A program made the translations under genes and the position numbers. The notes below the pieces were generated by a model. That model was not told the DNA's origin. It searched no databases and saw nothing but the letters and a program-made list of their open reading frames with translations. 52,255 bases of DNA from a virus. Its lineage: Duplodnaviria > Caudoviricetes. Positions within the stretch are counted from its first letter, which is position 1. Every line of letters begins with the position of its first letter. Shown one piece after another: positions 1 through 52,255 of the stretch. The stretch is taken from the IMG/VR virus record IMGVR_UViG_3300025154_000016, positions 1-52,255 of that record; one strand, 5' to 3'.

Positions 1-127
1 AATCATTCATTTAGGGTTGCTCCTTTTCATATCTAATTGTTCTAATGCCTTCCATTTTTCGACTCGTTTTAAGACCCAATCAAAAAATGCGGGTGTTGAA
101 TGATGTTCATCTTCTAAATCTGAAATC
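1..127. repeat. Terminal direct repeat, left copy (circularisation overlap)
   Basis: Bases 1-127 (aatcattcatttagggttgc...ctgaaatc) are identical to 52129-52255. Confidence 0.97.
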
Positions 128-186
128 ATATTCTTGAGATCATAAATAATTTCATTCTTATGATCATGTATCCAAATTCCTTTCAT
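7..186 (-). CDS. Small hypothetical protein, paralogous to the N-terminus of 38284-38805
   Basis: Probable start is MKGIWIH after a GAAAAGGAG SD (the ORF track extends it to 243). It shares DLKNMISDLEDEH with 38284-38805. Confidence 0.7.
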   Translation of the reverse strand: MKGIWIHDHKNEIIYDLKNMISDLEDEHHSTPAFFDWVLKRVEKWKALEQLDMKRSNPK

Positions 187-695
187 TAAGGTTGCTCCTT
201 TTCTATTTGTTCTCTTTTTTGGAAATCTTGACAGAGTCGACATTCATGATAATCTAATATATTTCCTTTTCGAGATTGATGCTTTTCTAACGTGCATTCA
301 CATACTGCATCCATGTTTAATTTTTCCATAGGCACAATCATTTTGGTTTGAGTTTTCCAATCATACACATATTTTTGAGCATGTTGGCATGTCCAATAAT
401 GTTGCTTTTGATAATAACCAATTGTGGTGCATAAAAAAGCTCCTCGACCTTGTTTAGAATCATATAACCATCGAGATCGCAATTCATTATCTTCATCCCA
501 ACCTAATCCATAACGACAATATCGAGTATCAATATCGAGAGTATATTTGGCTCTGATTTCGTCTAAATCGTTGGTTTTAAAGTTCTCTTCTAATATATTC
601 ATATCAATATCTTCTAATCCCACTTTGCCTTTGAAATGCAATTGGTGATCATATTCAAACATAAATTCTTTTTCGTTTTTAGTCATAATTTTCAC
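186..695 (-). CDS. Hypothetical protein, Cys/His-rich C-terminus
   Basis: 169-aa ORF in a tightly packed - strand gene run. Confidence 0.7.
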   Translation of the reverse strand: MKIMTKNEKEFMFEYDHQLHFKGKVGLEDIDMNILEENFKTNDLDEIRAKYTLDIDTRYCRYGLGWDEDNELRSRWLYDSKQGRGAFLCTTIGYYQKQHYWTCQHAQKYVYDWKTQTKMIVPMEKLNMDAVCECTLEKHQSRKGNILDYHECRLCQDFQKREQIEKEQP

Positions 696-716
696 GTCCT
701 GATTCGATTCAAAAAA

Positions 717-1205
717 TTAGGTCTCATGCTCCGTAATTTTGGTATATTTGTTTTTCTTATTAATTTTCATACGCTCAAAGAATTCCCATAAATGCATATA
801 ATCATTCATATATATTTCGATTAATAATTTCTCTGCAGCACAATCCAATAATTCCACATGACATTCAGTCGAATACCCTTTAGGATTAAGTCGTTCAATT
901 TCATTTAAGAAATAATTACATGCTAACAAGGACTCTTTACAGCCCCCTTCATAATGTCCACAATAAAACCATACCGTATATCTCACATGGGGATAACAAT
1001 CTTGTGAGTCTCGGCGTTGAATGATAAAACCACTGTTGTGTTGTCCAACATGTTCGGGAAAAATCTGTCGAAAAATATTAAAAGCATCTTTGAGATAAGA
1101 TTTTACTTTTGTCCACGGGACAACGGTATAGCCATATTCTTTATGATGATAATTGGGGTGTATGTGTTGTAATGCCCAATCGCGATAATAGGTCTCTTTT
1201 TTCAT
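717..1205 (-). CDS. Hypothetical protein
   Basis: 162-aa ORF with an AGGAG SD upstream. Confidence 0.7.
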   Translation of the reverse strand: MKKETYYRDWALQHIHPNYHHKEYGYTVVPWTKVKSYLKDAFNIFRQIFPEHVGQHNSGFIIQRRDSQDCYPHVRYTVWFYCGHYEGGCKESLLACNYFLNEIERLNPKGYSTECHVELLDCAAEKLLIEIYMNDYMHLWEFFERMKINKKNKYTKITEHET

Positions 1206-1238
1206 TGTTGTTTTCTCCTTTCTATTAATTTAAAAAAA

Positions 1239-1481
1239 CTATTGTTCATGCTCCGTGATCCGATAGAGATCGGTTAAGATGTCTTTAATCTGAAGATAAT
1301 TATTCACATATCTTTCCAAAATCTTTACAATTGAGTTTAATTGCGTGAGATTCATCATTGATTCACTTCGTAAATTATATAAAAGCACCCAATCTTCATT
1401 AGATAAAAAGGGCATAATTTTAGAAATTATAATTACTTCTGATTCTAATAAGGTAATTTTATAGCGTTTCTCAATGTTCAT
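1239..1481 (-). CDS. Hypothetical protein
   Basis: 80-aa ORF coupled to the upstream gene (ATGA overlap, GGAGG SD). Confidence 0.6.
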   Translation of the reverse strand: MNIEKRYKITLLESEVIIISKIMPFLSNEDWVLLYNLRSESMMNLTQLNSIVKILERYVNNYLQIKDILTDLYRITEHEQ

Positions 1482-1783
1482 TTAAAGTCCTCCGCTTTGT
1501 CTAAATACTCATGATAAGATTCTTCTTTTGATTCTTCAAATAAATCATCATCATCTTTTATAGTATCAAAAAATGGCGTCCAAGATTGAACTTGATTTTC
1601 TAAAAGAGTTTGATATTCTTCCCGGGACAAGACCACCTTAATCTTAAAATTCCGATGGTCTAATAACATTCGAGTTGCCGTTTCACAACAATGAATTGCT
1701 TCTTGTTCGGTATCAAATAAGCGTTCAAATTCTACCCAATCGTTTAACAAGAATTCATAGGTCACGAGCCACTGCACCATTAT
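1478..1783 (-). CDS. Hypothetical protein, acidic C-terminus
   Basis: The ORF track gives 1478-1846. The likely start is near 1780 after GGAGG. Confidence 0.55.
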   Translation of the reverse strand: MMVQWLVTYEFLLNDWVEFERLFDTEQEAIHCCETATRMLLDHRNFKIKVVLSREEYQTLLENQVQSWTPFFDTIKDDDDLFEESKEESYHEYLDKAEDFK

Positions 1784-1962
1784 TGTTTCCCTCCATAGAG
1801 TTTCGCCCATTTTTGATAAACACCACATTGGTCTTTTCCAATACATATATCAAAAAAACAACAAACACATGGACTCAACACATGGGTATACCCGCAGTCA
1901 CATTCCGCAATCCCTTGATAATAAGTTAAGGGATTTCCACAATCGGGACACTCGTCACTCAT
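1780..1962 (-). CDS. Small zinc-ribbon protein
   Basis: Contains CPDC...CDC...CVCC...C motifs and has a GGAGG SD. Confidence 0.65.
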   Translation of the reverse strand: MSDECPDCGNPLTYYQGIAECDCGYTHVLSPCVCCFFDICIGKDQCGVYQKWAKLYGGKQ

Positions 1963-2220
1963 TTACATTCCCTCCAAATAATGAAATTGTTTTTCTAACC
2001 ACCACTCTTTAATCCACAATCCATTTCCTTCTAACGGGACTTCCATATTCTCTAAAACTGATAAGGGTATCCAAATTGTTCGTTTATTATATAAATTAAA
2101 CGCAATTGCACGAGGTCGCCGTGCTTCAATCTTGCCTATAATATATACATATTCATTCTCTTTACGAGGTAATTGAGCAAACCAATCATTTAGATTTAGC
2201 ATTAGATTAACCCCCACCAA
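1963..2220 (-). CDS. Small conserved phage-type beta protein
   Basis: The pattern RAIAF...IWIPLS...LWIKEWW.EK resembles a common small phage family (KAil..vWiPkS...ipeW). Confidence 0.55.
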   Translation of the reverse strand: MVGVNLMLNLNDWFAQLPRKENEYVYIIGKIEARRPRAIAFNLYNKRTIWIPLSVLENMEVPLEGNGLWIKEWWLEKQFHYLEGM

Positions 2221-2287
2221 TACTCTAACGAGATCCCCCAGTTTTGGAGGGTCTGCATCAATTCAATTTCCGATAAAAGAAAAAAGA

Positions 2288-2824
2288 TCATTTATTGACA
2301 ACCTCCAACAATTGCACCATCCCACACCGAATCTTTCCAGTAGTATTATAGGGAACCACAATAGAACATAATGCTTCAATTGGAATCAAGCATTTCCAAA
2401 TTGGATTTGATCTTGAACAATTACCTTTAACCCAATCTAATGTTGCAACATTAATTCCACATCCACAATCATTGGTCGGTAACGGATTGACATTTTCGGT
2501 TAAAATAGATTGTTGTTCAATCTTCCAATTTGGATTTGGTTGATAATTTTCATGAAAGGTTTTATAACAGATTAATCCTAAATTAATCATTTCAAAATGG
2601 GTTTTAAGATATTGAATAGGATCAAATAGGTTTTCAGCCTCACTTAAATCAGCCCCACTTAAATCTGCCCTACTTAAATCTGCCCTACTTAAATTAGCCC
2701 CACTTAAATCAGCCCCACTTAAATCTGCCCTACTTAAATCAGCCCCACTTAAATCGACGGTATATCCGCAATCGACACAAATTAATTTCCACAAAATTTG
2801 AAAAGTTATCATTAATGTTCCCAC
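2288..2824 (-). CDS. Pentapeptide-repeat protein with a conserved phage C-terminal domain
   Basis: Has (A)DLSG/ADLSR repeats followed by CGCGINVATLDW and VVPYNTTGKIRC. Confidence 0.85.
   Translation of the reverse strand: MGTLMITFQILWKLICVDCGYTVDLSGADLSRADLSGADLSGANLSRADLSRADLSGADLSEAENLFDPIQYLKTHFEMINLGLICYKTFHENYQPNPNWKIEQQSILTENVNPLPTNDCGCGINVATLDWVKGNCSRSNPIWKCLIPIEALCSIVVPYNTTGKIRCGMVQLLEVVNK
2636..2755. repeat. 15-bp tandem repeat encoding the pentapeptide units
   Basis: Eight copies of ACTTAAAT at 15-bp spacing, from 2642 to 2747. Confidence 0.9.
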
Positions 2825-3598: not shown

Positions 3599-3604
3599 AG
3601 ATAA

Positions 3605-3856: not shown

Positions 3857-3857
3857 C

Positions 3858-5559: not shown

Positions 5560-5726
5560 TATTCCACAACCTCCCATTCGAGTAAATCATAAGAATCTCT
5601 TCCTATTTGTTCTAAAATCTCTTTATATTTTTCAGCATCGGTTTTATGTAAAAAGATTTTTTCAATGTGTTGTTCATCGGAAGCACAATGAAAGGAATCA
5701 TTATTACTAATAATATAAATTTTCAT
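5559..5726 (-). CDS. Small phage protein (MKIYII...IEKIF...AEKY type)
   Basis: TAATG coupling to the upstream gene, and a common small phage-protein pattern. Confidence 0.55.
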   Translation of the reverse strand: MKIYIISNNDSFHCASDEQHIEKIFLHKTDAEKYKEILEQIGRDSYDLLEWEVVE

Positions 5727-7279
5727 TAGATCAACCCCCGTGCCAACATATACCGCAATCCCCATGCACAATCTTTGGGAGTCCATTTCCCGTTCGAAGC
5801 TTTTAACATAAATTCTAATCGGTCGTCTTCTTTAACGTTAGTTCCTTTCATGACTTCCGCCATCTTTTCGACCCCTTTGACCATATTAATCATCAATTTA
5901 AAATAGGCCAAATCCACTAAATTCATTGCAGGGGGATTTTCGATCATTGTGCAAGCATCATGATACAAGAGAGCTAAGCGATCTTTTCTGTTAATTGGAT
6001 CATTGCACAGATTTTCAAATTGCTCTTGAATTTTCGCTTTCAATTGCGGACAAATCGGGTCTAACGCAATCTCAAAAGCAACAATATTTTGATCAGTAAT
6101 CACCAATTCTTCCGATTCTTGCAACCCTACGGACGCAAACCAATCTTCCCCAATCCGAATAAAATTCTCTTCGGTTAACAACGATTCATCGGTAATGGTC
6201 ATGGTTTGGAACGGCCACGGTTTAGTAATCTCTTTTTTGATCGGGAGTTCCGGTAAAGTGACTCTTTTAGTTTCATTCAAGGCTTTCAGATCGGGTTTTT
6301 TAGTTTGTTTGGTCTCGGATTTCTTTTCTTTAATTGGTTCTTCAATAATAGGTTCTTCATCAATAACTTCCACATGATCGGGAGGTGGTGGTAATTCCGC
6401 AATCTTATCTTGTTTGATTTGTTCGATTTCTTCTTTGGTAGGAGGACTAAAATTCACAATCTCGGTTTGAACGGGTTCTGCATAAAATTCGGGTTGATGT
6501 ACTTCGGAAACATCCACTTCTTTCATTTCGAGATCTTCTTCTAAATCAACCACTTCAAAGATTTCTTCGACGACGGGTTCTACAATCGGTAAAGGAGCGG
6601 GTTTCGGGGCTTCGGGAATTAATTGAGAAATAGTAATTGGTGCGGATTCTGTTTTAGGAACGGAATTAGTAAAGGAAGTCTGAATCGAATCCATTTCGTA
6701 AAAACCCGTATCCGTAATGGTCATGCCGTGAAGACACCCTCGATCTAACGCCCTTATCGCAAAACTATAATTGTTTTTCGCAATCATATTTTGCTGGTTG
6801 TTGTAGCCTTCCCAATTTTTATTATTCTTTTTGAGTAAACCTTGATCTTGAGCATCTACAATTGAAAATTTAAATAAAGTCCACGGTTTGCTTGGATTCA
6901 CACGGACATTCATTTTATGGATAGTATTCGACATTTCAATAACATCAAATTGAGCATAGGGATGTGCCGATTTAAACAGTGACATCGCGGTATCAATTCC
7001 AATTCCTAATGATCCTTGAATCATCATGAGTTCATTAGCGAAATCTTCGGGAATCCCACGGGCTTTACAATAACTTAACCGAATCGCATATTCATCGCGT
7101 TTATATTGTTCATCACTTTCTTTGCTTTTTGGAACGGGCGGAAAATGTCCGTGATCCATATAAATTTGAGCGACATCCCGATATTTGTAAAACGACGGTT
7201 CTAATTGGGCTTCCACGGCTGCCACTCGTTCCTCAAAATCATCTATTTTTGGTTCTTGTTGTTTGGGTTCTTTCATCAT
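5726..7279 (-). CDS. RecT-like single-strand annealing protein with a long acidic/Pro-rich linker and a C-terminal domain
   Basis: The N-terminal region LMMIQG...FSIVDAQDQGLL...NWEGY...NMI...SFAIRAL...LHGM matches the phage RecT-like pattern (FsmdDA..aGL...nW..YP..Ml...a.fa.R....l.G). Confidence 0.6.
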   Translation of the reverse strand: MMKEPKQQEPKIDDFEERVAAVEAQLEPSFYKYRDVAQIYMDHGHFPPVPKSKESDEQYKRDEYAIRLSYCKARGIPEDFANELMMIQGSLGIGIDTAMSLFKSAHPYAQFDVIEMSNTIHKMNVRVNPSKPWTLFKFSIVDAQDQGLLKKNNKNWEGYNNQQNMIAKNNYSFAIRALDRGCLHGMTITDTGFYEMDSIQTSFTNSVPKTESAPITISQLIPEAPKPAPLPIVEPVVEEIFEVVDLEEDLEMKEVDVSEVHQPEFYAEPVQTEIVNFSPPTKEEIEQIKQDKIAELPPPPDHVEVIDEEPIIEEPIKEKKSETKQTKKPDLKALNETKRVTLPELPIKKEITKPWPFQTMTITDESLLTEENFIRIGEDWFASVGLQESEELVITDQNIVAFEIALDPICPQLKAKIQEQFENLCNDPINRKDRLALLYHDACTMIENPPAMNLVDLAYFKLMINMVKGVEKMAEVMKGTNVKEDDRLEFMLKASNGKWTPKDCAWGLRYMLARGLI

Positions 7280-7563: not shown

Positions 7564-8424
7564 TTAGGTAAACTCGATATGATCAACCGTGCAAGAATAT
7601 TTGTAAAAAGCATTTTTATTATATTTAATTTCAGAAGTGAGAATAAAACAATAGACTTTATCAATATTCTTATTGTTCTTCTTATTATATTCGGCTAACA
7701 GTTGATCGGTAAGTCCAATATTTTTTAGAATTTCTGTTGAATCACAATAACTTTTAACTTGATTAAATTCAAATTCATTATTGGCATTAATTGGAATAGG
7801 ATTATCTTCAGCATCATTTTTATAAACAATTTGTGTGTTTTTCCAAGTATTTTGATAATAAATAAAAGAACCTTTTGTTTTCTTATCATTATATTCAACA
7901 CCACCTAATTTTAATGAAGGTGTATTGTCTTCTTTTATTACATCACGAGTTTGTCGTTTCATGATGGTTTTACCTTCTTTATCTTTAAGTTCATTACCTT
8001 TTTCATCTTTTTTAGGTTCGGTAGTTTCATACCATTCTTTTTCATTTTCCATCATCACAAACCCATAATACAATTTTCTTCCAAGAAATGGATTAGGAAA
8101 CATTTGTTTAATCGAAAGGGTTTTTCCGGTAGGTGTATAATCGCGCCATTTGGCGATTTGGGGATGTTGGATATTCATAAAAACCGTATCGAGATCCACA
8201 TACCCTTGGGTTTTTAAGACTTGTTTGACTCCTAAATCTTTCATAATAATCTGTAAGGAACGTTCAAAGACATTAAACGGGATTACTTTGCCTTCGGCGT
8301 TCTTTTCACCTAATTGTAACACGGGAAATTTGAAGTCCCGAAAAGCGGTTTTGGTTGATTCGGCAGCAGCCAAATCAGGATCATTGTCGGTCCAGAGTTC
8401 CGACGGTTTTAAAAAGTTCACCAT
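7564..8424 (-). CDS. Replication-region protein, possibly ssDNA-binding
   Basis: 286 aa, beta-rich, with an AGGAG SD, close to the RecT-like gene. The function is inferred from context only. Confidence 0.6.
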   Translation of the reverse strand: MVNFLKPSELWTDNDPDLAAAESTKTAFRDFKFPVLQLGEKNAEGKVIPFNVFERSLQIIMKDLGVKQVLKTQGYVDLDTVFMNIQHPQIAKWRDYTPTGKTLSIKQMFPNPFLGRKLYYGFVMMENEKEWYETTEPKKDEKGNELKDKEGKTIMKRQTRDVIKEDNTPSLKLGGVEYNDKKTKGSFIYYQNTWKNTQIVYKNDAEDNPIPINANNEFEFNQVKSYCDSTEILKNIGLTDQLLAEYNKKNNKNIDKVYCFILTSEIKYNKNAFYKYSCTVDHIEFT

Positions 8425-8531: not shown

Positions 8532-9077
8532 TTAATTATTTTTAGAAGTATGAAACAACGGACATGCCATCGTCTCTTTTAACGGTTGGATTAAGGAACA
8601 ATGCTGATTAATCCGTGGTCGCACACATTCGGGATGTAGTGTTGAGGTAATGGTTTGAACTTCACAATCAATCACTTCTTCATGCGAAAATATACAGCGA
8701 TTAAAGAATAATTTGGCTTGCTCATACGACTCACAACAAATCTTTAAGAGATAATTCCAATGACCCGTTAATCGATAAACTTGTTGAATAAAGGGACAGA
8801 TATGCGTATTAAATAACGAATCACCTCTGGTTTTCAGAAAGATCATCAAATAGACTTGGGATTGAAGTTTGTTCGAATTAAACCCTTTTTGAACAACAAG
8901 TAATTGGTTTTTGAGTAGATAATCAATGCGAGCAAAAATTGCGGGTTGGGATAATTTCATGATTTGTGCAAGTTGGGTATTGTTTAACATTGGATTATCG
9001 GCTAACAATTGGATAATCTGTTCGTTTTTCTGATCATAGTCAATCGATTTCATATTTAATCCTCCTTTTCTAACCAT
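8532..9077 (-). CDS. Lrp/AsnC family transcriptional regulator
   Basis: N-terminal HTH (IIQLLADNPMLNNTQLAQIMKLSQPAIFARIDYL) and an AsnC/RAM-like domain (VYRLTGHWNYLLKI). The likely start is MKSID at 9053. Confidence 0.85.
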   Translation of the reverse strand: MVRKGGLNMKSIDYDQKNEQIIQLLADNPMLNNTQLAQIMKLSQPAIFARIDYLLKNQLLVVQKGFNSNKLQSQVYLMIFLKTRGDSLFNTHICPFIQQVYRLTGHWNYLLKICCESYEQAKLFFNRCIFSHEEVIDCEVQTITSTLHPECVRPRINQHCSLIQPLKETMACPLFHTSKNN

Positions 9078-9363: not shown

Positions 9364-10185
9364 TTAATCCTCCTCATACATCGAATCCAAATCTTCTTCG
9401 ACCCGTGGCGCTAAAAAGTATTGGATATACGATCCATTATCGATTTCCCCTTTCTGGATTTGATTATCGATTAAGAATTTCAAATGAATCGGACTTTCAG
9501 ATTTTAAGCGAATTGAGACTTGATCACAAATCGGACTAATCTTTAAGATATTCTTGAGGAATTGGATTGCGAACGCCCCTTCGGTATTTTCTTCAAATTT
9601 CGAGAGAATTAACTCTTCGGGTTCCACTTCATAACTCATATCGCCCATTGTGCCTTCTGCCCAAAGTCGTAATTGTTTCTCATTGGAATGAATATTCAAG
9701 ACATCAGAGAAAATCTCGGCGTCTTTAATCGCTTCGTCTAAAAGAGAGAGTTTAAAGGTGGCTGTATTCAAATAGGGAATTTCATCTAATTGTTCTAAAT
9801 CGATATTTTCTATTTCTAAATCGATTAATGCCATACTAAATTTCCGGGCTTTCTTTGATCCTTCAACTTGCATTTCAATACCTAATTTTTTATCTTTGGG
9901 GTCATGAATCAAACAGATTTCATCTTTCGGACTCCCTCGTTTAATGATTTTCACGAGATCATTGAGATTCAACCCTAATTGATACTCGTCATCGGTATCA
10001 AAGATGAGAAAATCTTCTTTTTTCAGATGACAATCAAGTAAACAAATATGGGAGCCATCCATGCCCGTAATTTGGAGTTCTTCTTTAGATATCATTAACC
10101 GTGTTTCGGTTAAGATGCCTTCGACTGCTTCGAATAAACCCTTCACAAATTTGGGATTGCTAAATTTTAGTTTAAAACCTTTCAT
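9364..10185 (-). CDS. pcn: Archaeal-type DNA sliding clamp (PCNA)
   Basis: Contains GMDGSHICLL, LGLNLNDLVKIIKR, KFSMALID, F..QFLKNILK and C-terminal YFLAPRVEE with an acidic tail. Confidence 0.95.
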   Translation of the reverse strand: MKGFKLKFSNPKFVKGLFEAVEGILTETRLMISKEELQITGMDGSHICLLDCHLKKEDFLIFDTDDEYQLGLNLNDLVKIIKRGSPKDEICLIHDPKDKKLGIEMQVEGSKKARKFSMALIDLEIENIDLEQLDEIPYLNTATFKLSLLDEAIKDAEIFSDVLNIHSNEKQLRLWAEGTMGDMSYEVEPEELILSKFEENTEGAFAIQFLKNILKISPICDQVSIRLKSESPIHLKFLIDNQIQKGEIDNGSYIQYFLAPRVEEDLDSMYEED

Positions 10186-10433: not shown

Positions 10434-11444
10434 TTATTCTTTATTTTTAAGTAAAAATTGGGGATCAACCGCTTTAAAACTGAGTCGTCCATCACAAGCC
10501 GAATCTGTTAATGTGCCATCTATGGCTCTTACGACAATTCCTTCTCGTAATACTGAAATATTTGAATTAACGACACTAAATCCATGTGCATATTCTAATA
10601 TCTCATCAACTGTTTGATCTAAATAATATTGATCATTTATAATTGGAACCATAGGTAATTCTAATTGATTACAAATCGATTTCATTGCGTCTAATGAAAG
10701 ATAGCGATGATTAGGAATATCATAGAGACTAAAGAAATGCATTTGATAATCAGTGAGTTTATATTTATTACCGCCAATTTTAGGACCAATACATTCGCCT
10801 TGAAGGGCTAACCCTTCTAATAATCGGTCTTCTAAATGATATTTCCAAGCCATTTTCCATTGAAAGGAATCTTCATTACAAACTAACTCTTGATTGCGAC
10901 TACAGACACCAAAAACACCTTGATATTTATAAAATGTTAAGGAAGTTCCATCGACTTTTTCTGTCACGTAAAAGGGTTCATCTTTCCATCGTTGTAAGAA
11001 AGTTGGAATTGTTTGAATTCGTACTTCATCTGTTTTTGGAATAAACGAAGGAAAAGATCCTTTTGCATTCGGATTGGATACCACATCAATAATGGGTTCC
11101 CATTTAGTGACACCTAATAATTCTGTTACATCTAACCCATTAACTAAATTGACATTAGATAATTCAGGAAATTTAGGATAAATCGGTAAGGCTAATCCTT
11201 GACTAATTTGACCTTTCATTTTGACGGTTCGTAAATGATGGCGATCTTCGGCTTTCGCATTTTCATTAATCCAACTTAATGGAATAACAGAATCGATTTC
11301 AATATAGAGACATAAATCTCCTTTTTTAAATTCTCCTTTTCGAGCGACTAAATCCCAACCTAATACTTTAAGTCGTTCGATTTTATCGGCATCTTGAATA
11401 GGTTGAACATCCAAGACTTCTTGAATACTGGCTAATTTTCGCAT
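10434..11444 (-). CDS. RNA ligase, DRB0094/Rnl5 family
   Basis: Has an MRKLASI N-terminus, motif I EKVDGTS, LQGEC, REGIV and SFKAV. Confidence 0.92.
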   Translation of the reverse strand: MRKLASIQEVLDVQPIQDADKIERLKVLGWDLVARKGEFKKGDLCLYIEIDSVIPLSWINENAKAEDRHHLRTVKMKGQISQGLALPIYPKFPELSNVNLVNGLDVTELLGVTKWEPIIDVVSNPNAKGSFPSFIPKTDEVRIQTIPTFLQRWKDEPFYVTEKVDGTSLTFYKYQGVFGVCSRNQELVCNEDSFQWKMAWKYHLEDRLLEGLALQGECIGPKIGGNKYKLTDYQMHFFSLYDIPNHRYLSLDAMKSICNQLELPMVPIINDQYYLDQTVDEILEYAHGFSVVNSNISVLREGIVVRAIDGTLTDSACDGRLSFKAVDPQFLLKNKE

Positions 11445-17203: not shown

Positions 17204-17548
17204 ATGCAAACCCTTAAGAATGATCTTTTTCTCTATCCTCCTATGAATACTGACTCTATGAAAAAATCCCGGGCTAAATACAATTTAACCCATAAAAAAG
17301 AACGCGCTCAACATTCTCATGACATTCATCAACAAAAAAAAGCGCAAATTCATCAACAATATTATACAAATATCGCTTGTTCTCAATGTGGTGCAACGAA
17401 TAAACGAATTATTTATCATCACCTTGACCCAACCTCTAAACAACGTGATCCTATTACCGCTTTTCACCGTAATCATTTAGAAGAACTTTCTAATTGTATT
17501 CCACTCTGTTATTCTTGTCATCAAAAATTACATCATCAAAAAAAATAA
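17204..17548 (+). CDS. HNH endonuclease
   Basis: Contains CSQC...YHHLDP...NCIPLCYSCHQKLH and lies immediately upstream of the terminase. The true start may be 17243 or 17258. Confidence 0.85.
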   Translation: MQTLKNDLFLYPPMNTDSMKKSRAKYNLTHKKERAQHSHDIHQQKKAQIHQQYYTNIACSQCGATNKRIIYHHLDPTSKQRDPITAFHRNHLEELSNCIPLCYSCHQKLHHQKK

Positions 17549-32659: not shown

Positions 32660-33150
32660 TGACCGATTATGATTCAACAGTGTATGGAATTTGTATTTCC
32701 ACATCGATTACGGGTTCGGGAACCACTGCGTATCCCGCGGGGGATCGAATGTTTTTTATAACCGATAAAATTAATGGGAATGAAACCTTTCTCCAGAAAA
32801 TTAAAGAAGTTGCGGGAGGCAATTCTTATTCGAATAAAGACGGTAAACGCACATGTATTATAACTTTAGGGGATTGTCCTATTGTAAGCGGGTCTTCTGT
32901 CTTTAATACAATGATTCCGAAATTGAAGGATGAACACCGAGCGGGGCAAGGGGTCTTATATTTTTGGATTAAAACCTTAAGTAGTGGCGCACCGAATTGG
33001 GGTGCTGCTGCAAATACATTATATATTGGATATACGGCAGCGGGAGCAGAAACCAACTATATGAGTGGGTATTGCACGACTTTCAAATGGGAAATCGAAG
33101 GGAATTTATATTGGATTAAAAGTTTGAGTTTTAAGGAGTGTTTGGTTTGA
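32659..33150 (+). CDS. Putative distal tail protein
   Basis: A beta-rich protein directly after the tape measure gene, with TAATG coupling. Confidence 0.5.
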   Translation: MTDYDSTVYGICISTSITGSGTTAYPAGDRMFFITDKINGNETFLQKIKEVAGGNSYSNKDGKRTCIITLGDCPIVSGSSVFNTMIPKLKDEHRAGQGVLYFWIKTLSSGAPNWGAAANTLYIGYTAAGAETNYMSGYCTTFKWEIEGNLYWIKSLSFKECLV

Positions 33151-41812: not shown

Positions 41813-41831
41813 ACCTTATAAATTATAAGGT
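41813..41831. promoter_or_regulatory. Palindromic operator-like site ACCTTATA-AAT-TATAAGGT
   Basis: Perfect 8-bp arms, with a related palindrome ACCTTAT-T-ATAAGGT at 41774-41788. Confidence 0.7.
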
Positions 41832-42545
41832 TTTAGGATATGGTAAAATCGGATATTTCAATTGAGATAATAATTCTTTCTTTCGTTTTTTTTTATATTC
41901 TTTACAAATAGGATTAAGAAAGACATATCTATGTTTAATCGACCGTTCTTCAAAGGATACTTTATCCCCAAATGTTTCTTTAATTTGTTCAATTGACATT
42001 CCATGTGCAAATGTTGCATGATGTTGATTTTCTAATCCTTTTACTTTTGGATCTTGAAATGGAATTGATTTTCCAGTATAATATGCCGAACATGCTTGAT
42101 AGATAATTCCTAAATGATTTTGCTTTGTATCGGCATAACTTACAATAATTTCTTTATCAAGTAAAGGAATTGTGTGCATAACAAACCAAGATTCTCCATT
42201 TTTAGGAACAGATTTATCTATCCAAAGACGGTTTAATTCATAAACATTATGTTGATTTTGTTCTCCCGCAATACCTTTTAGTAGTGTCGAACTTGGACTA
42301 ACTCCATAAGTTATAACTCCTTTTAAGATATTTTGAGGATATTCAAATAAACCAAATGCTTTTGAAATAGGGCATGAACGATGAAGATAATGATTTTTTA
42401 CCACAATATTGATTGCTCTTTGAGAATTAATCATCTTAATATAATATTTATCTTTGAATAATTCTTTGGGTTTTTGAAAAGAATAAAACAAATCTTGACA
42501 ATCAAAGGAACTTATTTTTGAAATTAATTTCGTCATAATAATCAC
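41823..42545 (-). CDS. Mom-family adenine modification enzyme (GNAT-like)
   Basis: Contains HYLH, GVITYG, YELNRLW...KNGESWF, IVSYAD..QNH.GIIYQA...YTG, KHRY and C-terminal PYPK. Confidence 0.85.
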   Translation of the reverse strand: MIIMTKLISKISSFDCQDLFYSFQKPKELFKDKYYIKMINSQRAINIVVKNHYLHRSCPISKAFGLFEYPQNILKGVITYGVSPSSTLLKGIAGEQNQHNVYELNRLWIDKSVPKNGESWFVMHTIPLLDKEIIVSYADTKQNHLGIIYQACSAYYTGKSIPFQDPKVKGLENQHHATFAHGMSIEQIKETFGDKVSFEERSIKHRYVFLNPICKEYKKKRKKELLSQLKYPILPYPKTL

Positions 42546-43399: not shown

Positions 43400-43730
43400 A
43401 ATGCCAAAATTAATCGCGGGTAAAACGAAAATTATTAAAGAAGAAAAGAAAGAATTATTAAATCCCGACGATGCGGAATGGTATGATCGCGAGACGCTCC
43501 AAGAACTTAAAGTCCAACTGAAAGCAAAACCCGTTAAAGAATCTAAAAAGAAAGCCGACAAACCTTCCTTAATTTCGATAACGGAAAAAGAGAAGTTTAT
43601 CAACTGGCTCCGAACGTCCACTTCGAATAATCCCCAACTCAAACGTATCAGACTCAAAGATGGCGGCTTCCGCGATTGTGTGCCACGAGGGATGATCGAT
43701 TTGTTCAATGAATATGTGGAGGAAACATAA
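43383..43730 (+). CDS. Basic hypothetical protein
   Basis: The probable start is MPKL at 43401, after GGAGG. Confidence 0.6.
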   Translation: MWRLFKMPKLIAGKTKIIKEEKKELLNPDDAEWYDRETLQELKVQLKAKPVKESKKKADKPSLISITEKEKFINWLRTSTSNNPQLKRIRLKDGGFRDCVPRGMIDLFNEYVEET

Positions 43731-44431
43731 TGAAATTCATTCAAACCGATTTTTTTACCTATCCGTTTACCGAAACAATTCAAGGAATAGTCACGGACGT
43801 TCCCTATAAAGGATGTCTGACCAATAAACTCGAAGAAAAAGATTTCGATGTCGCGTGGTTCCTTCAAAAATGTGATGAATTAACTCCCCCAAATTCCTTT
43901 TTAATTACGTTTTCCAATATGGCAATGATTTTAGATATGCGGAGTTTAGCTAAAGATACTAAATGGGAATTTCAAACTTATCAAATCTGGAATAAAGAAC
44001 CTGTGAGAACATGGATTGCATGGTCAAGACCCTTACGCACATGTGAGTTTGTGTTATATTTTACGAAAGGTAATTATAAACTTAATTTTAAAAATGGAGA
44101 AGTTAAACCTATGAAAAAACGGAATTCATTTGGAGGTTCCCTTAAACAAACTAATCCTAATACCAATAAAGAATCATTTGGAATGTATTCTGAAATAGTT
44201 AATTATCATACCCCTAAAACTAAAATTCATCCAACCCAAAAACCAACAGAATTTAGTTCTATGTTTAAGCAAGTGTTGGGAAATCCCGAAGGAATTATAT
44301 TAGATCCATTTTGTGGTTCGGGTTCCTTATTACATTCCTTTTCTAATTCGATTGGCATTGATGTGAAAGATTGGATTTATCCCAAAAATAAAACGCTTGC
44401 ACAATGTATGGAAGAGGTGAAATCTAAGTGA
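43730..44431 (+). CDS. DNA methyltransferase (N4-C/N6-A, beta class)
   Basis: Motif IV variant TDVPY, IHPTQKP, and motif I ILDPFCGSGS. Confidence 0.85.
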   Translation: MKFIQTDFFTYPFTETIQGIVTDVPYKGCLTNKLEEKDFDVAWFLQKCDELTPPNSFLITFSNMAMILDMRSLAKDTKWEFQTYQIWNKEPVRTWIAWSRPLRTCEFVLYFTKGNYKLNFKNGEVKPMKKRNSFGGSLKQTNPNTNKESFGMYSEIVNYHTPKTKIHPTQKPTEFSSMFKQVLGNPEGIILDPFCGSGSLLHSFSNSIGIDVKDWIYPKNKTLAQCMEEVKSK

Positions 44432-45228: not shown

Positions 45229-45987
45229 TTACAAAAACGCCGTGATCTTTTTTCGCTTGTTCTTTTTGTTGCGATCTTGTCCTAATTGAATCCGATGTAA
45301 AATATCTAAATCGTAACCCGCTGGTAATCCTTTATCGGAAAGATTCAATTCGGTACCAATCCATTTAATACCTAACGATTCCCCGACTTCAGCTAAACAA
45401 CCCGATCCCATAAATGGATCATATACTAAACTCGGTTTAAGATCTTGTATCATTTCAGCCCATGTTTTATAATCTTTGGGAGATGGATGGTTGTATTTAT
45501 ATTCTTCGTCTCGCAAGAATCCGTTATGGATATAAGTTTCATAGACATCCCGATGAAATTTATGCTCTTTCCACCATTGCTCGTCCCCAAAACAGTAATA
45601 ATCCATTTTTGCAGAATAGTGAGAGATTTTAGTTGATCCTTGCCCATTTTTATAATAGAGTGTTACCCAGTCAATAGGTTGAAAAGATTCAATCCACCAT
45701 TGTTTATGTTTGCGTCCAACACAGATTATTTGAGCTTTGGAGACCCGTTGGGCTTCTAAAAACCAGTTTATATGAAATTCGGGATTCCATTGATCATTAT
45801 AAGGCACACGATCTTGTTTATGGGCTTTTTGATTAATACCCATTGGTTTTTGGGCATGATCTTGATAATCATGTCCCCATAATGTGTCGGTAAAAATAAG
45901 ATCGATGGATTTGTCGGGTAAGGATTGCATATATTCCAGACAATCTTTAATAATACACATTCCATAAGTGCCTTCAATCAGATTCAT
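45229..45987 (-). CDS. DNA methyltransferase-like protein (beta class) with an atypical motif IV
   Basis: Contains DCLEYMQSLPDKSIDLIFTDTLWG, HPSPK, VYDPFMGSG and WIGTEL. Confidence 0.85.
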   Translation of the reverse strand: MNLIEGTYGMCIIKDCLEYMQSLPDKSIDLIFTDTLWGHDYQDHAQKPMGINQKAHKQDRVPYNDQWNPEFHINWFLEAQRVSKAQIICVGRKHKQWWIESFQPIDWVTLYYKNGQGSTKISHYSAKMDYYCFGDEQWWKEHKFHRDVYETYIHNGFLRDEEYKYNHPSPKDYKTWAEMIQDLKPSLVYDPFMGSGCLAEVGESLGIKWIGTELNLSDKGLPAGYDLDILHRIQLGQDRNKKNKRKKITAFL

Positions 45988-49780: not shown

Positions 49781-50539
49781 TTAAATAATCTCCTTGGCTT
49801 GCGTGGTTAATAATTTTTGGTTGTGTTGAAAAAAGGTCGGACCAAAATCCGGCACATTACTATTCGTTCCTTTGAGTTTATTATTTCGAGTATAAGTGAG
49901 TTGAGTTTCGAGTATCCATTTAAGAATACAAAGCGGGGTTTTAAACAATTCTAAAAGAATGAGCGATTGTTTTTTCCCGATCCCAATTAATCCACTTAAG
50001 AAATATCGTTGTTGGTCGATTAAAGCGGTTTCCTTTTTTGCTTTATTCGTAGGATCGTGGTGGTCTTTCTTTTCAATGCTTGTTAAGAAGAAATCCATAA
50101 TAATTTGCCATGTTTCTTCATGAGACGTGCTATATTCGATATGTTGATCATAATCTAAGATTAATTCTGTTTTAATCTTAACCCACATCTTTTCGGTAAA
50201 ATGTTGATTAAAAAACTTTGATCCTGGTTCGATTTGGATAATAATAATGGACCGTTTAAAATTCGCATAGCGGGATGCGGATTGCTCCCACAATCGTCCA
50301 TCATAAAGCGACGCTAACAAATCCGACGCATTCATGTGCATTTGGGGATTCCATGATTTCGAGATTCTCTTGATTTCAAAGACAATCTCTTCTGAGACTT
50401 GCACGTCCCCAATATTCAAATTATCAAAGACGGGTTTCCAAATACAATTTTCATTATATTGAGTTATGATATAATCTTTAAACCCGCTGGCTGCCTCACG
50501 ATTATCAACGGGAATCGGATGTTGATCCATATTAAACAA
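49781..50539 (-). CDS. ERCC4/XPF-family structure-specific nuclease with HhH
   Basis: Contains VDNRE, LNIGD, FEIKR, DLLASLYDGRLWEQ and the HhH motif LSGLIGIGKK. Confidence 0.9.
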   Translation of the reverse strand: MFNMDQHPIPVDNREAASGFKDYIITQYNENCIWKPVFDNLNIGDVQVSEEIVFEIKRISKSWNPQMHMNASDLLASLYDGRLWEQSASRYANFKRSIIIIQIEPGSKFFNQHFTEKMWVKIKTELILDYDQHIEYSTSHEETWQIIMDFFLTSIEKKDHHDPTNKAKKETALIDQQRYFLSGLIGIGKKQSLILLELFKTPLCILKWILETQLTYTRNNKLKGTNSNVPDFGPTFFQHNQKLLTTQAKEII

Positions 50540-50567: not shown

Positions 50568-50582
50568 CTTATATTTTATAAG
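50568..50582. promoter_or_regulatory. Palindromic operator-like site CTTATA-TTT-TATAAG
   Basis: An exact copy of the motif, upstream of the ERCC4 nuclease gene. Confidence 0.7.
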
Positions 50583-50583
50583 A

Positions 50584-50832
50584 TCATTCTTTCGTCCATT
50601 TAGACGTTATATCTTTATAATCTGACGTGGAACTCGCAAAATTCGTGTAGGTAATTGTCGGATAATAGGGATAATATGGAATTGAAAGTGGATAATAAGT
50701 CTTTTCTGTTTCAATAATCTCCCATTTATTTTCGACATTCTTTTCGACAAACACACTATATTTGAAGTATTCGAGTTTTAATCGATTTAATTCCATTTCG
50801 GTAGTCGTAGCAGGGGCTAATAATAAAATCAT
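50584..50832 (-). CDS. Hypothetical protein
   Basis: An AGGAGGTGA SD precedes MILLL. Confidence 0.55.
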   Translation of the reverse strand: MILLLAPATTTEMELNRLKLEYFKYSVFVEKNVENKWEIIETEKTYYPLSIPYYPYYPTITYTNFASSTSDYKDITSKWTKE

Positions 50833-51060
50833 AAATTGGTCACCTCCTTGTCTGCTTCCGTAATCTCCGTCACAGACGGAATAATATAATGGACTTTGTA
50901 ATCTTGCCAAATTTTTAAACATTTACTTATTTGTTCTACAATTTTATAATCTATATCACCAAACTCTAAATCAGACCAAAGATCATCGAGTTTGTTAAGT
51001 AATTTGGCTTTCAAGAGAATTTCATGCCCACATGTTGGACACTTTTCAAGATAGTTGTCT

Positions 51061-51297
51061 TTATTCAATTTTAAGATCCTCCTTCTGTTTGGGTATCTCG
51101 ATTTGGTCGCCCCCATAACTCCACTCCTTATGATAAGGAATCTCAAAAAAGCGACAGATTACTTGAATTTCATGAGATACAATTGTTTGAGGTAATGGTT
51201 GACAAATATTCGATCCTTCTTTCAACAACAGAATCGTATAATGATCGCTCGATTCTTTAAGTTGTAAACTTTTAATCAGTTGAAATTCTTTGCTCAT
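51061..51297 (-). CDS. Hypothetical protein
   Basis: The probable start is MSKEF, after AGGAG. Confidence 0.5.
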   Translation of the reverse strand: MSKEFQLIKSLQLKESSDHYTILLLKEGSNICQPLPQTIVSHEIQVICRFFEIPYHKEWSYGGDQIEIPKQKEDLKIE

Positions 51298-51613
51298 ATT
51301 CTTTTCTCTCCTTTTGTAAGTTTTCATACGAAAAAAGATAGACATCTTTTTCAAATTGTTCATTTTCACGATCTTCTTGTAATGTATAACAAATATAACT
51401 ATATTGTTTATAATAATCTTGTCCAAATTCCGTTTTCACTGTTCCATCAAAACGATTAATCCATACAATAAGTTCTTGAGCATATAATATTTCTTTATGG
51501 ATTTCACAAATAACCCCATCATTAAAATCATCTTTATTACAATCCTTTTTTGCTCGAGGATCAGCATCAGACACAATATATTGAATATGTACTTGAATTG
51601 GTTGAGGATTCAT
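51272..51613 (-). CDS. Hypothetical protein
   Basis: 113 aa with an AGGAG SD. Confidence 0.6.
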   Translation of the reverse strand: MNPQPIQVHIQYIVSDADPRAKKDCNKDDFNDGVICEIHKEILYAQELIVWINRFDGTVKTEFGQDYYKQYSYICYTLQEDRENEQFEKDVYLFSYENLQKERKEYEQRISTD

Positions 51614-51813
51614 TTTACTTTCTCCTTTATTCGTAAATCATTGATCTTATATTTAGTTAAAAAATTGACAAATTGGATTCGAAATTCTTCAATAGTTGTA
51701 ATGGGATTATCTAAATGATATGATTTGACTTTCATGCGTTCCATGACGCTCATTACATCCATATAATTTAAGATGAGTTTAATGAAATCAATTATAAAAG
51801 AAAATAGTTTCAT
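51610..51813 (-). CDS. Hypothetical protein
   Basis: 67 aa, coupled by ATGA overlaps. Confidence 0.5.
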   Translation of the reverse strand: MKLFSFIIDFIKLILNYMDVMSVMERMKVKSYHLDNPITTIEEFRIQFVNFLTKYKINDLRIKEKVK

Positions 51814-52004
51814 TTATCTTCATGCTCCTTTAACATGATTAAGAGTTTGACCCAATTTATTAATCGTGTAATCGCAAGATCGGGTTCTTTGGTGGGTAAA
51901 GCATTTTCTAATATTTTCACTAATAACTCAAGGTGGGTATTCGGTAAAGTCATAGTTTTAGCATACACAAACCAAATTCGATTAAAGTCTTCTTGGGTAA
52001 TCAT
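51810..52004 (-). CDS. Hypothetical protein
   Basis: 64 aa with an AGGAG SD. Confidence 0.55.
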   Translation of the reverse strand: MITQEDFNRIWFVYAKTMTLPNTHLELLVKILENALPTKEPDLAITRLINWVKLLIMLKEHEDK

Positions 52005-52128
52005 TTATGATTCTCCTTACGATGTTTTTTACATTCCATATCTTTACAACGGAAGCAATGCCACCATCGAGTAATTCGATTCGATATCAACCAACGTAAA
52101 TGATGATTGGCTAACCAAAGATAAATAA

Positions 52129-52255
52129 AATCATTCATTTAGGGTTGCTCCTTTTCATATCTAATTGTTCTAATGCCTTCCATTTTTCGACTCGTTTTAA
52201 GACCCAATCAAAAAATGCGGGTGTTGAATGATGTTCATCTTCTAAATCTGAAATC
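52129..52255. repeat. Terminal direct repeat, right copy
   Basis: Identical to 1-127. Confidence 0.97.

What the first reader, a model, noticed from the sequence alone, without database searches (positions are those of the whole stretch)
1..52255. Complete tailed-virus genome with archaeal, possibly Asgard, host markers
Seen: the terminal overlap, a full head-tail module, PCNA, an ERCC4 nuclease, Lrp, GGTGA SD sites and oligo-T terminators. Known: PCNA and XPF/ERCC4 are archaeo-eukaryotic, and few Asgard viruses are described. Inference: the PCNA with an acidic tail and the Cys-containing Lrp look Lokiarchaeia-like. I recognised no polymerase, primase, integrase or endolysin.
Basis: partly seen in the sequence, partly recalled or inferred. 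Interest (0 to 1): 0.7.

Follow-up and report, generated by a model that had tools for sequence, protein, structure and literature searches.

The report
Complete tailed virus, probable Lokiarchaeia host
This is the whole genome of a previously undescribed head-and-tail virus whose DNA-clamp gene comes from Loki-type Asgard archaea, the closest microbial relatives of complex cells, so it most likely infects them.

Summary
The window is a whole IMG/VR virus record. Its ends repeat exactly over 127 bp, so the unique length is 52,128 bp. It is 92% coding and has no tRNA.

Confirmed genes include PCNA, an Lrp/AsnC regulator, an ERCC4 nuclease, a D5-type helicase, an RNA ligase, Mom, DNA methyltransferases, HNH plus large terminase, a capsid protein, a tape measure and a C1q-tipped fibre. 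The portal, protease and tail tube are inferred from position only.

The Asgard reading holds for PCNA. All 12 organism-named relatives are Asgard. In 400 Asgard genomes, every match stronger than E 1e-33 lies in the class of Ca. Lokiarchaeum ossiferum, and the nine best lie in its 14-genome family. The tree nests the viral clade there with 100/99 support, and the acidic tail matches. One methyltransferase and the RNA ligase also match Lokiarchaeia best.

Lrp and ERCC4 carry no host signal. No CRISPR spacer or provirus link was found.

Capsid and terminase match none of 50,697 GenBank phage records, and only one IMG/VR relative exists. I read it as a new lineage of a known kind. An earlier unverified note (e1-5977671) reported a Lokiarchaeia-like PCNA on another genome.

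The parts
1..127 (.). Terminal direct repeat, left copy. It is identical to 52129-52255, so the unique genome is 52,128 bp.
   Evidence: Exact 127-bp match. IMG/VR classes the ends as direct terminal repeats, with completeness 100.
52129..52255 (.). Terminal direct repeat, right copy.
2288..2824 (-). Pentapeptide-repeat protein. I infer a possible DNA mimic with an anti-restriction role.
   Evidence: PF00805 E 3e-15. A partial homolog exists in the relative G001.
5726..7279 (-). 517-aa protein of the replication arm. It is a candidate RecT-like single-strand annealing protein, as a lead only.
   Evidence: Atlas feature score 0.91 to RecT clusters. No Pfam, PHROG, NCBIfam or PDB hit. A 34% homolog lies next to PCNA in metagenome locus L099.
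7564..8424 (-). 286-aa protein of unknown function that travels with PCNA.
   Evidence: A 32% homolog lies directly after PCNA in L099. No family hit.
8532..9077 (-). Divergent Lrp/AsnC-type regulator.
   Evidence: PF01037 25.7 bits against a cut-off of 25, plus helix-turn-helix hits. 87 relatives at E <= 1e-3 among 1.84 billion representatives; the next cluster shares 33% identity.
9364..10185 (-). PCNA sliding clamp of Lokiarchaeia type with the acidic tail ...EEDLDSMYEED.
   Evidence: Pfam. 116 relatives. 52-54% identity to Ca. Lokiarchaeum ossiferum. Trees. Tail comparison.
10434..11444 (-). RNA ligase with an N-terminal PHA02142 OB-fold domain.
   Evidence: PF09414 E 9e-29 and PF21189 E 2e-24. 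phrog_968 E 1e-64. 46-49% identity to two Lokiarchaeia genomes.
12827..14305 (-). D5-type superfamily 3 helicase with no detected primase domain.
   Evidence: DUF5906, D5_N and Pox_D5. phrog_1829 E 3e-36, aligned only to profile positions 350-758 of 772.
17204..17548 (+). HNH endonuclease directly upstream of the terminase.
   Evidence: PF01844 22.2 bits against a cut-off of 21.4.
17588..19441 (+). Large terminase subunit.
   Evidence: phrog_38 E 1.2e-3. GCQRSGKST and WIDELD are invariant between this protein and its 43-46% homolog in G001. No tblastn match in 50,697 phage records.
19495..22464 (+). 989-aa protein. I infer a portal, perhaps fused to further head-maturation domains, from its position.
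   Evidence: Position after the terminase. A 59% homolog over 403 aa exists in G001. No Pfam, PHROG, NCBIfam or PDB hit. The AF2 model was unusable, pLDDT 33.
23054..23521 (+). Head decoration or minor capsid protein.
   Evidence: PF23982 E 3.7e-4, below cut-off. phrog_766 E 4.2e-4.
23523..24662 (+). Major capsid protein of HK97 type.
   Evidence: Atlas score 0.98 to PF09950, DUF6260 and Linocin_M18 clusters, with the ten best hits all in one family or clan. The family has only 10 proteins among 5.8 billion clusters. The AF2 model was unusable, pLDDT 38.
24829..28110 (+). 1093-aa repeat-bearing virion protein with beta-sandwich-like repeats.
   Evidence: Sub-threshold PhoD_N and Pur_ac_phosph_N hits. 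A 51% homolog exists in G001.
31496..32659 (+). Tail tape measure protein of 387 aa, which implies a short non-contractile tail.
   Evidence: Eight PHROG tape-measure families, best E 1.3e-7.
33138..36326 (+). Tail fibre or adhesin with a sialidase-like CBM and a C-terminal C1q domain.
   Evidence: PF00386 E 3.4e-8 and PF22585 E 9.3e-8, both over cut-off.
41823..42545 (-). Mom-family DNA-modification protein.
   Evidence: PF25680 E 5.3e-35.
43730..44431 (+). N6/N4 DNA methyltransferase.
   Evidence: PF01555 E 9.2e-14.
45229..45987 (-). Second DNA methyltransferase. Its best Asgard match lies in the L. ossiferum family.
   Evidence: PF01555 E 3.8e-5, below cut-off. 4 of 400 Asgard genomes match, all in the class, with the best at 51% in G021.
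49781..50539 (-). ERCC4 (XPF/Mus81/Hef-like) nuclease with a C-terminal helix-hairpin-helix region.
   Evidence: PF02732 E 2.1e-9. Invariant E-x-K-R and GxGK columns in a 9-sequence alignment. A 36% homolog exists in G001.

Best explanation
The window is the complete genome (52,128 unique bp) of a lytic, non-integrating head-and-tail virus of the class Caudoviricetes. Its host is most likely a Lokiarchaeia-type Asgard archaeon close to the family of Lokiarchaeum.

A 22-kb rightward block makes and fills the particle. It encodes HNH plus large terminase, an inferred portal, a decoration protein, an HK97-type capsid protein, a short tape measure and a C1q-tipped fibre.

A 29-kb leftward block, which continues across the circular junction, runs early functions. 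The virus has no DNA polymerase or primase of its own. I infer that it brings a D5-type helicase and its own copy of the host-family sliding clamp (PCNA) to load the host's polymerases and clamp loader onto viral DNA.

I also infer the following roles. A RecT-like protein, the ERCC4 nuclease and the ligase process recombination and replication intermediates. Mom, two methyltransferases and a pentapeptide-repeat protein shield the DNA from host restriction. An Lrp-type regulator times expression.

Shown here: genome completeness, the gene identities named above, and the Lokiarchaeia origin of PCNA. Inferred: the host, the clamp's role, the lytic lifestyle and the packaging mode.
For: Completeness: a 127-bp exact end repeat and CheckV 100%. 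The same proteins occur on 6-9 contigs, the longest 52,298 bp.

Virus identity: the capsid scores 0.98 to HK97-type clusters. There are tape-measure PHROG hits, terminase motifs with a weak PHROG hit, and a fibre with C1q and CBM domains.

Host, from PCNA:
- 12 of 12 organism-named relatives are Asgard.
- The best species-representative genome is Ca. L. ossiferum, at 52% identity.
- 361 of 400 Asgard genomes match. Every match stronger than E 1e-33 lies in the 161-genome class of L. ossiferum, and the nine best lie in its 14-genome family.
- In the careful tree, the viral clade plus the core of that family has 100/99 support. Another family member, G012, branches outside this group with 100/93 support.
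- The family-specific acidic tail is shared.

The PCNA clade is viral. Metagenome contigs that carry it also carry homologs of neighbouring virus genes in the same order.

Second and third genes: methyltransferase 45229-45987 matches 4 of 400 Asgard genomes, all in the class, with the best at 51% in a family member. The RNA ligase matches 7 of 400, and its three best matches are in the class.

Composition: the non-structural arms are 33% GC. Six PCNA loci from genomes of the family are 30-36% GC.
Against: No CRISPR-spacer link was found. DNA searches of all three window chunks against 161 class genomes scored only 2 candidates per genome. Deeper searches scored 40 candidates per genome in six family genomes; G002 was searched for bases 1-20000 only. 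All gave only low-complexity near-matches outside repeat arrays.

No related capsid gene was found in 161 class genomes, so there is no provirus or binned relative.

Lrp and ERCC4 carry no host signal.

The RNA ligase is absent from all 14 family genomes, and one out-of-class Asgard genome holds a 38% copy.

The methyltransferase and the ligase were compared with Asgard genomes only, so better non-Asgard matches are not excluded.

PCNA identity to cells is only 47-54%. The capture is therefore old, and a later host shift is possible.

No non-Asgard PCNA was in the tree.

The portal, protease and tail tube are unverified. Both structure models failed.
Confidence: 0.7

Rival explanations
1. The virus infects a different archaeon, either another Asgard class or a non-Asgard groundwater archaeon such as a DPANN member. 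On this view it merely carries a PCNA captured long ago from Lokiarchaeia or from one of their viruses.
For: No spacer or provirus link to Lokiarchaeia was found. PCNA identity to cellular copies is only 47-54%, on a long stem. One non-Lokiarchaeia Asgard genome has a 38% RNA ligase copy. The holders are groundwater metagenome runs, where many other archaea live; that last point is recalled.
Against: Three separate genes have their best Asgard matches in Lokiarchaeia. The viral PCNA clade of 17-18 sequences keeps the host family's tail motif, which suggests continued work with that family's clamp partners. No relative named to an organism is non-Asgard.
Confidence: 0.2
2. It is a bacteriophage that happens to carry archaeal-type genes.
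For: GGAGG and GGTGA ribosome-binding sites, HNH plus terminase, Mom, and a phage-type RNA ligase (phrog_968) are all common in phages.
Against: By established knowledge, a PCNA clamp has no partner in a bacterial replisome. The virus has no polymerase of its own (Pfam on 70 proteins). Terminase and capsid match none of 50,697 GenBank phage records. PCNA, one methyltransferase and the ligase match Asgard genomes at 46-54%.
Confidence: 0.04
3. The record is not a complete free virus. It would instead be a misassembled chimera, or a fragment of a larger element whose ends repeat by chance.
For: GC differs between the structural block (42-45%) and the arms (about 33%). The relative G001 shares only the head module and a few other genes, 12 in all.
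Against: The end repeat is an exact 127 bp. The same proteins recur on 6-9 contigs up to 52,298 bp. Four runs hold all sampled words of a 10-kb stretch. The GC gap is mostly at codon positions 1 and 2 (0.47/0.41 against 0.43/0.30), with a smaller shift at position 3 (0.365 against 0.301). The gene set is that of a whole tailed virus, at 92% coding density.
Confidence: 0.04

Closest known systems
IMG/VR record IMGVR_UViG_3300037067_010960 (handle G001), which I did not find described in any paper
   Same: A complete genome with terminal repeats, 48,964 bp. It shares the head module: terminase 46%, presumed portal 59%, capsid 57%, decoration 39% and the large repeat protein 51%. It also shares ERCC4 (36%), a D5-type helicase (24%) and two small genes, making 12 shared genes in all.
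   Different: It has no PCNA. Its tail and most replication genes differ. Its GC is 40% against about 36% here, and its end repeat is 59 bp.
Skoll virus of Lokiarchaeota (Rambo et al., preprint 10.1101/2021.07.29.454249; passages read)
   Same: A tailed-virus-like genome linked to Lokiarchaeota that carries a PCNA closest to Lokiarchaeota.
   Different: The paper gives 36.5% protein similarity for Skoll's PCNA, against 52-54% identity here. Skoll also has a ribonucleotide reductase and is linked to its host by spacers. The terminase and capsid of this virus found no tblastn match among 50,697 GenBank phage records. Whether Skoll is in that collection was not checked.
Verdandiviridae (Medvedeva et al., preprint 10.1101/2021.07.29.453957; passages read)
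   Same: Tailed viruses associated with Asgard archaea. They have a short tape measure, a decoration protein gene just before the capsid gene, no integrase, and proteins that are mostly unrecognisable.
   Different: Verdandiviruses are about 20 kb or less and encode no replication proteins. This genome is 52 kb and has a helicase, PCNA, a ligase and nucleases. No sequence similarity of capsid or terminase to GenBank phage records was detected.
Jinchivirus, Guangzhivirus, HodV and Chiranvirus (PMC13700489; section 15 and passages read)
   Same: Recently described Asgard Caudoviricetes, some complete with terminal repeats and several methyltransferases.
   Different: Their hosts are Kariarchaeaceae, Heimdallarchaeaceae, Hodarchaeales and Thorarchaeia. 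They come from marine or vent sediments, with sizes of 19.6-56.9 kb. The main text mentions neither PCNA, groundwater nor aquifer. The supplementary contig lists could not be seen.
Halobacterium phage phiH, a tailed archaeal virus with PCNA
   Same: A tailed archaeal virus of similar size (58 kb) that encodes its own sliding clamp.
   Different: Its PCNA is only 23.7% identical, and no other gene matched.

Membership tests
Caudoviricetes (tailed dsDNA viruses) | HK97-fold major capsid protein | tested here: inconclusive
   The language-model feature search scores 0.98 to PF09950, DUF6260 and Linocin_M18 capsid clusters, with the ten best hits in one clan. No Pfam, PHROG, NCBIfam or PDB sequence hit. 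The fold could not be modelled, pLDDT 38.
Caudoviricetes (tailed dsDNA viruses) | Large terminase subunit with an ATPase and a nuclease domain | tested here: inconclusive
   phrog_38 E 1.2e-3 over residues 412-523. GCQRSGKST and WIDELD are invariant between two homologs; their reading as Walker A and B is mine. No PDB hit of meaning.
Caudoviricetes (tailed dsDNA viruses) | Portal protein | tested here: inconclusive
   The 989-aa gene after the terminase has no family or PDB hit. The AF2 model had pLDDT 33. The assignment rests on gene order only.
Caudoviricetes (tailed dsDNA viruses) | Tail genes (tape measure, fibre) | tested here: met
   Eight tape-measure PHROG families, best E 1.3e-7. The fibre has C1q and CBM domains over cut-off.
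Viruses of Asgard archaea (Lokiarchaeia) | CRISPR spacer match from an Asgard genome, the criterion used in the published studies | tested here: not met
   No match in an array context was found in 161 class genomes, at low sensitivity. None was found in six family genomes at 40 candidates each; G002 was searched for bases 1-20000 only. The near-matches are low-complexity. Only species representatives were searched, with no dedicated spacer database.
Viruses of Asgard archaea (Lokiarchaeia) | Host-derived genes that nest within the host lineage | tested here: met
   PCNA nests in the family of L. ossiferum with 100/99 support. Methyltransferase 45229-45987 matches class genomes only. The three best RNA ligase matches are in the class.
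Viruses of Asgard archaea (Lokiarchaeia) | Provirus or binned relative in an Asgard genome | tested here: not met
   The capsid profile A1 matched 0 of 161 class genomes. Other Asgard classes were not searched with it.
Verdandiviridae | Capsid and terminase sequence similarity; a genome of about 20 kb without replication genes | tested here: not met
   No tblastn match of capsid or terminase in the GenBank phage collection. Whether that collection holds verdandiviruses was not checked. The genome is 52 kb and has a replication module.
PCNA (archaeo-eukaryotic sliding clamp) | PCNA_N and PCNA_C domains in one protein of about 250-270 aa | tested here: met
   PF00705 at 58.4 bits and PF02747 at 35 bits, both over cut-off, in a 273-aa protein.
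ERCC4/XPF-Mus81-Hef nucleases | ERCC4 nuclease domain with acidic and lysine catalytic residues, followed by a helix-hairpin-helix region | tested here: met
   PF02732 at 37.9 bits, over cut-off. Invariant E52, K54, R55 and a GxGK column in 9 sequences. The motif names are recalled. Activity was not tested.

The most novel reading that the evidence does not exclude
This would be the founding complete genome of a new family-level lineage of tailed viruses of terrestrial-subsurface Lokiarchaeia. Its hallmark would be a virus-maintained PCNA clade: 17 viral-type sequences that keep the host family's acidic C-terminal tail. That clamp would act as an adaptor, diverting the Asgard host's own polymerases, clamp loader and clamp-binding enzymes to viral DNA. 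If so, it offers a natural handle on the eukaryote-like replication machinery of Asgard archaea.
Probability: 0.35. Interest if true: 0.65.

Novelty: new member of a known kind. Interest (0 to 1): 0.5.

Why it matters
Few viruses of Asgard archaea are known. One 2026 study counted 16 published ones before adding 23 (PMC13700489, passages read). The Asgard virus papers I read draw on marine, hydrothermal-vent or hot-spring sediments and on enrichment cultures.

This genome is complete and sits in groundwater metagenome runs. Its particle genes match no GenBank phage record. Its clamp gene points to the very family that holds a cultured Lokiarchaeon, Ca. L. ossiferum.

That makes the host hypothesis testable. 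It also offers a viral PCNA that can be assayed against the replication proteins of a cultured host, and it widens the known habitat and gene repertoire of Asgard-linked viruses.

It does not change the picture that Asgard viruses are typical prokaryotic viruses.

Tried and rejected
Structure prediction:
- The capsid alignment of 10 sequences gave pLDDT 38.
- The N-terminal 435 aa of the presumed portal, with 2 sequences, gave pLDDT 33.
- Both models were unusable, so no fold search was run.

Sequence searches for the unexplained proteins:
- PDB sequence searches of terminase, presumed portal, capsid profile and the 517-aa protein gave nothing meaningful.
- NCBIfam on 10 proteins gave nothing meaningful.
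- Pfam on 20 small proteins gave one sub-threshold hit.

IMG/VR scans:
- Single-protein scans with capsid and terminase found no relative.
- Alignment scans found only G001.
- The PCNA alignment found only a 25% hit on an unrelated record.
- The one metagenome scan gave 8 short contigs.

Spacer search:
- There were three class-wide DNA searches.
- There were four deeper searches on six family genomes; G002 was searched for bases 1-20000 only.
- I fetched 23 near-matches and examined one more. None lies in a repeat array. The best are A/T-rich or acidic-repeat low complexity.
- A 112-bp tandem repeat in the L. ossiferum genome matched bases 1197-1242 only at E 0.1-0.2. I dismissed it as chance.

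Other host and function tests:
- The capsid profile matched 0 of 161 Lokiarchaeia genomes.
- Cluster look-ups for Lrp relatives and for PCNA relatives added no organism names, except that one cluster holds the L. ossiferum clamp.
- PIP-box motifs: 3 observed against 3.4 expected, with none at a terminus of a replication protein. There is no support for clamp-docking peptides here.
- No RNA holder is listed among the sequencing runs.
- GC heterogeneity as a sign of a chimera was rejected because it is mostly an amino-acid effect.

Not used or not available: complex prediction, read laying and fold search were not used. Paper supplements were closed, so the contig lists of PMC13700489 and the other Asgard-virus papers could not be checked for this record.

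None turned up a description of this virus.

Full report
WHAT THE WINDOW IS

The 52,255-base window is one whole virus record of IMG/VR, classed as having direct terminal repeats and rated 100% complete by CheckV. Bases 1-127 are identical to 52129-52255, so the unique genome is 52,128 bp. A 127-bp overlap is what a de Bruijn assembler with a largest k of 127 leaves on a circular path. That point is recalled, not tested. If it holds, the repeat shows a closed assembly and not necessarily physical ends.

The same PCNA, capsid and ERCC4 proteins are on record from 6, 7 and 9 contigs, the longest 52,298 bp. Four coded runs labelled groundwater metagenome hold all sampled words of a 10-kb stretch, though they may be the source of this DNA. 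Two further runs hold 47% of the words.

There is no tRNA. A greedy set of 98 non-overlapping ORFs covers 92% of the sequence under table 11.

Genes run leftward at 1-14.5 kb and 37.4-52 kb. These two stretches form one 29-kb block across the junction. Genes run rightward at 15-37 kb.

GC is 29-35% in the leftward block and 42-45% at 18-28 kb. The gap lies mostly at codon positions 1 and 2, because the structural proteins are richer in Ala, Gly and Thr. Position 3 shifts less, 0.365 against 0.301.

GENE CONTENT

I scanned 70 proteins against Pfam. Seventeen have some family at E <= 0.01, and 10 pass a curated cut-off. Those passing are:
- PCNA
- an RNA ligase with a PHA02142 OB domain
- a D5-type helicase
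- an Lrp/AsnC regulator (barely over cut-off)
- a pentapeptide-repeat protein
- Mom
- an N6/N4 methyltransferase
- ERCC4
- an HNH endonuclease
- a 1062-aa fibre with C1q and sialidase-like CBM domains

PHROGs add a tape measure (eight families, best E 1.3e-7). They also show that the helicase matches 'DNA primase' families only over their helicase part, profile positions 350-758 of 772.

The terminase has only a weak PHROG hit, E 1.2e-3. However, GCQRSGKST and WIDELD are invariant between it and its homolog in a related virus. I read these as Walker A and B.

The 379-aa protein after the decoration gene scores 0.98 in the Atlas feature search to HK97-type capsid clusters. The 517-aa protein at 5726-7279 scores 0.91 to RecT clusters, which is a lead only.

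The 989-aa protein after the terminase, presumably the portal, has no hit in any library.

Both structure predictions failed, with pLDDT 38 and 33. The HK97 fold and the portal are therefore not shown structurally.

No polymerase, primase domain, integrase or lysin family was seen.

EXPRESSION SIGNALS

GGTGA precedes an ORF start at 12 of its 42 occurrences, and GGAGG at 25 of 59. Runs of five or more T follow 37 of 98 stops within 50 nt, against a 14.7% background. These signals are real but are not specific to archaea.

HOST: PCNA

A search of 5.8 billion protein clusters gave 116 relatives. The 12 rows that name an organism are all Asgard: Promethearchaeota, Promethearchaeia, Lokiarchaeota, and one Atabeyarchaeum at 26% identity.

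The only species-representative genome confirmed with the single-protein query was Ca. Lokiarchaeum ossiferum B35, at 52% identity.

Against 400 genomes of its phylum, 361 matched at E <= 1e-5. Every match stronger than E 1e-33 lies in handles G002-G162, which are the 161 genomes of the class of L. ossiferum. The best out-of-class match is 113 bits, against 248 bits in-class. The nine best matches (47-54% identity) all lie in its 14-genome family.

A careful IQ-TREE run of 60 rows, rooted on other Asgard classes, gives this picture:
- The virus and 16 metagenome PCNAs form one clade (94/92).
- This clade is joined by one sequence from a 218-kb contig.
- That group is sister to the core of the family, with 100/99 support for the union.
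- Another family member, G012, branches outside the union (100/93).
- The rest of the class branches outside that (99/90).

The quick 88-row tree agrees.

The viral tail ...APRVEEDLDSMYEED matches the family's ...APRVEEDDDSMYED. It differs from other Lokiarchaeia families (...EFEDEDDMDEF) and from other Asgard classes (...APRVEAE).

The clade is viral rather than cellular. Locus L099 carries PCNA (59%) followed by homologs of 7564-8424 (32%) and 5726-7279 (34%), in the virus's order. L097 pairs PCNA (68%) with a relative of methyltransferase 45229-45987. L101 has weak matches to the two genes upstream.

HOST: OTHER GENES

Methyltransferase 45229-45987 matches 4 of 400 Asgard genomes at E <= 1e-10. 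All four are in the class, and the best (51% identity) is in family member G021.

The RNA ligase matches 7 of 400. The three best, at 49%, 46% and 41%, are in the class. One out-of-class genome has a 38% copy, and none of the 14 family genomes has one.

These two genes were compared with Asgard genomes only.

ERCC4 has just 8 relatives, on unnamed contigs of 22 kb or less. The Lrp has 87 relatives at E <= 1e-3 among 1.84 billion representatives. Apart from its own cluster, the nearest shares 33% identity, and none of the 10 I looked up names an organism. Neither gene says anything about the host.

HOST: NEGATIVE RESULTS

No CRISPR-type match was found. The class-wide DNA searches scored only two candidates per genome. 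The deeper searches covered six family genomes, with G002 searched for bases 1-20000 only. Every near-match I inspected lies outside repeat arrays and is low-complexity.

The capsid profile matched 0 of 161 class genomes.

These blanks are therefore weak evidence.

RELATIVES AND NOVELTY

The capsid family has 10 members among 5.8 billion clusters. IMG/VR holds one relative, G001: 48,964 bp, a 59-bp end repeat and 40% GC. It shares 12 genes, namely the head module, ERCC4, the helicase and a few small genes, but it has no PCNA.

Terminase and capsid have no tblastn match in 50,697 GenBank phage records. PCNA matches only Halobacterium phage phiH, at 23.7%.

Published Asgard tailed viruses differ in size, gene content, host or habitat. 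These are the verdandiviruses, Fenrir, Skoll, the Jinchi-, Guangzhi- and Chiran-viruses, HodV, and NMV1/2. Skoll also has a Lokiarchaeota-like PCNA, given as 36.5% similarity, so the kind is known.

Three literature searches found no description of this virus. Supplements were closed.

HOW IT MOST LIKELY WORKS

The following is inferred.

The virus has no polymerase, so it depends on the host replisome. Its helicase would open the DNA. Its own copy of the host-family clamp would engage the host clamp loader, polymerases and flap nuclease. A RecT-like protein, the ERCC4 nuclease and the ligase would handle recombination-dependent replication and repair.

Mom, two methyltransferases and a pentapeptide-repeat protein would guard against restriction. 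The Lrp-type regulator may act on a 15-bp palindrome, found 7 times against 0.08 expected, mostly 30-60 nt upstream of leftward genes.

The HNH gene next to the terminase suggests cos-type cutting (recalled). The 387-aa tape measure suggests a short non-contractile tail.

The absence of an integrase, and of any provirus relative, suggests a lytic or non-integrating cycle.

VERDICT

The host is probably Lokiarchaeia, with confidence about 0.7. The virus is a new, probably family-level, member of a known kind.

Noticed in passing
window 8483-8497, 12253-12267, 41815-41829, 50568-50582 (exact); 15286-15300, 15935-15949, 22576-22590 (one mismatch): The 15-bp palindrome CTTATA-WWW-TATAAG occurs 7 times, against 0.08 expected by shuffling. 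Several copies lie 30-60 nt upstream of leftward gene starts. It is a candidate operator for the viral Lrp-type regulator, or a promoter element.
   Followed up: partly
window 18000-28000 compared with the rest: The head genes are 42-45% GC and the rest about 33%. The gap is mostly due to amino-acid make-up. GC at codon position 3 is raised only to 0.40-0.45 in the genes shared with the 40%-GC relative G001. This may reflect exchange of the head module.
   Followed up: partly
window 19495-22464; L004 5360-8890: The gene after the terminase is unusually long, 989 aa here and up to 1177 aa in G001. Only the first 400 aa or so are conserved between the two, at 59%. This fits a portal fused to variable extra domains, but no tool could name any domain.
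   Followed up: partly
window 44428-45225: A 265-aa protein sits between the two methyltransferases. It has no Pfam, PHROG or NCBIfam hit.
   Followed up: partly
L124 (G021:C357, whole 6,634-bp contig): The Lokiarchaeia genome that holds the closest methyltransferase carries it on a short 31%-GC contig of small ORFs. None of the other ORFs has a match to the virus. It may be a piece of another mobile element.
   Followed up: no
L130 651-1305 (G002:C1, about 201,450-202,100): The Ca. Lokiarchaeum ossiferum chromosome has a 112-bp tandem repeat of 5.8 copies at 96% match. Its weak similarity to window 1197-1242 looks like chance.
   Followed up: partly
window 14524-15529: The lowest-GC stretch (28.5% in the 14-16 kb bin) has the largest non-coding gaps, 467 and 266 bp. 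It lies at the point where the leftward and rightward gene blocks diverge. It is a candidate origin or early promoter region.
   Followed up: no
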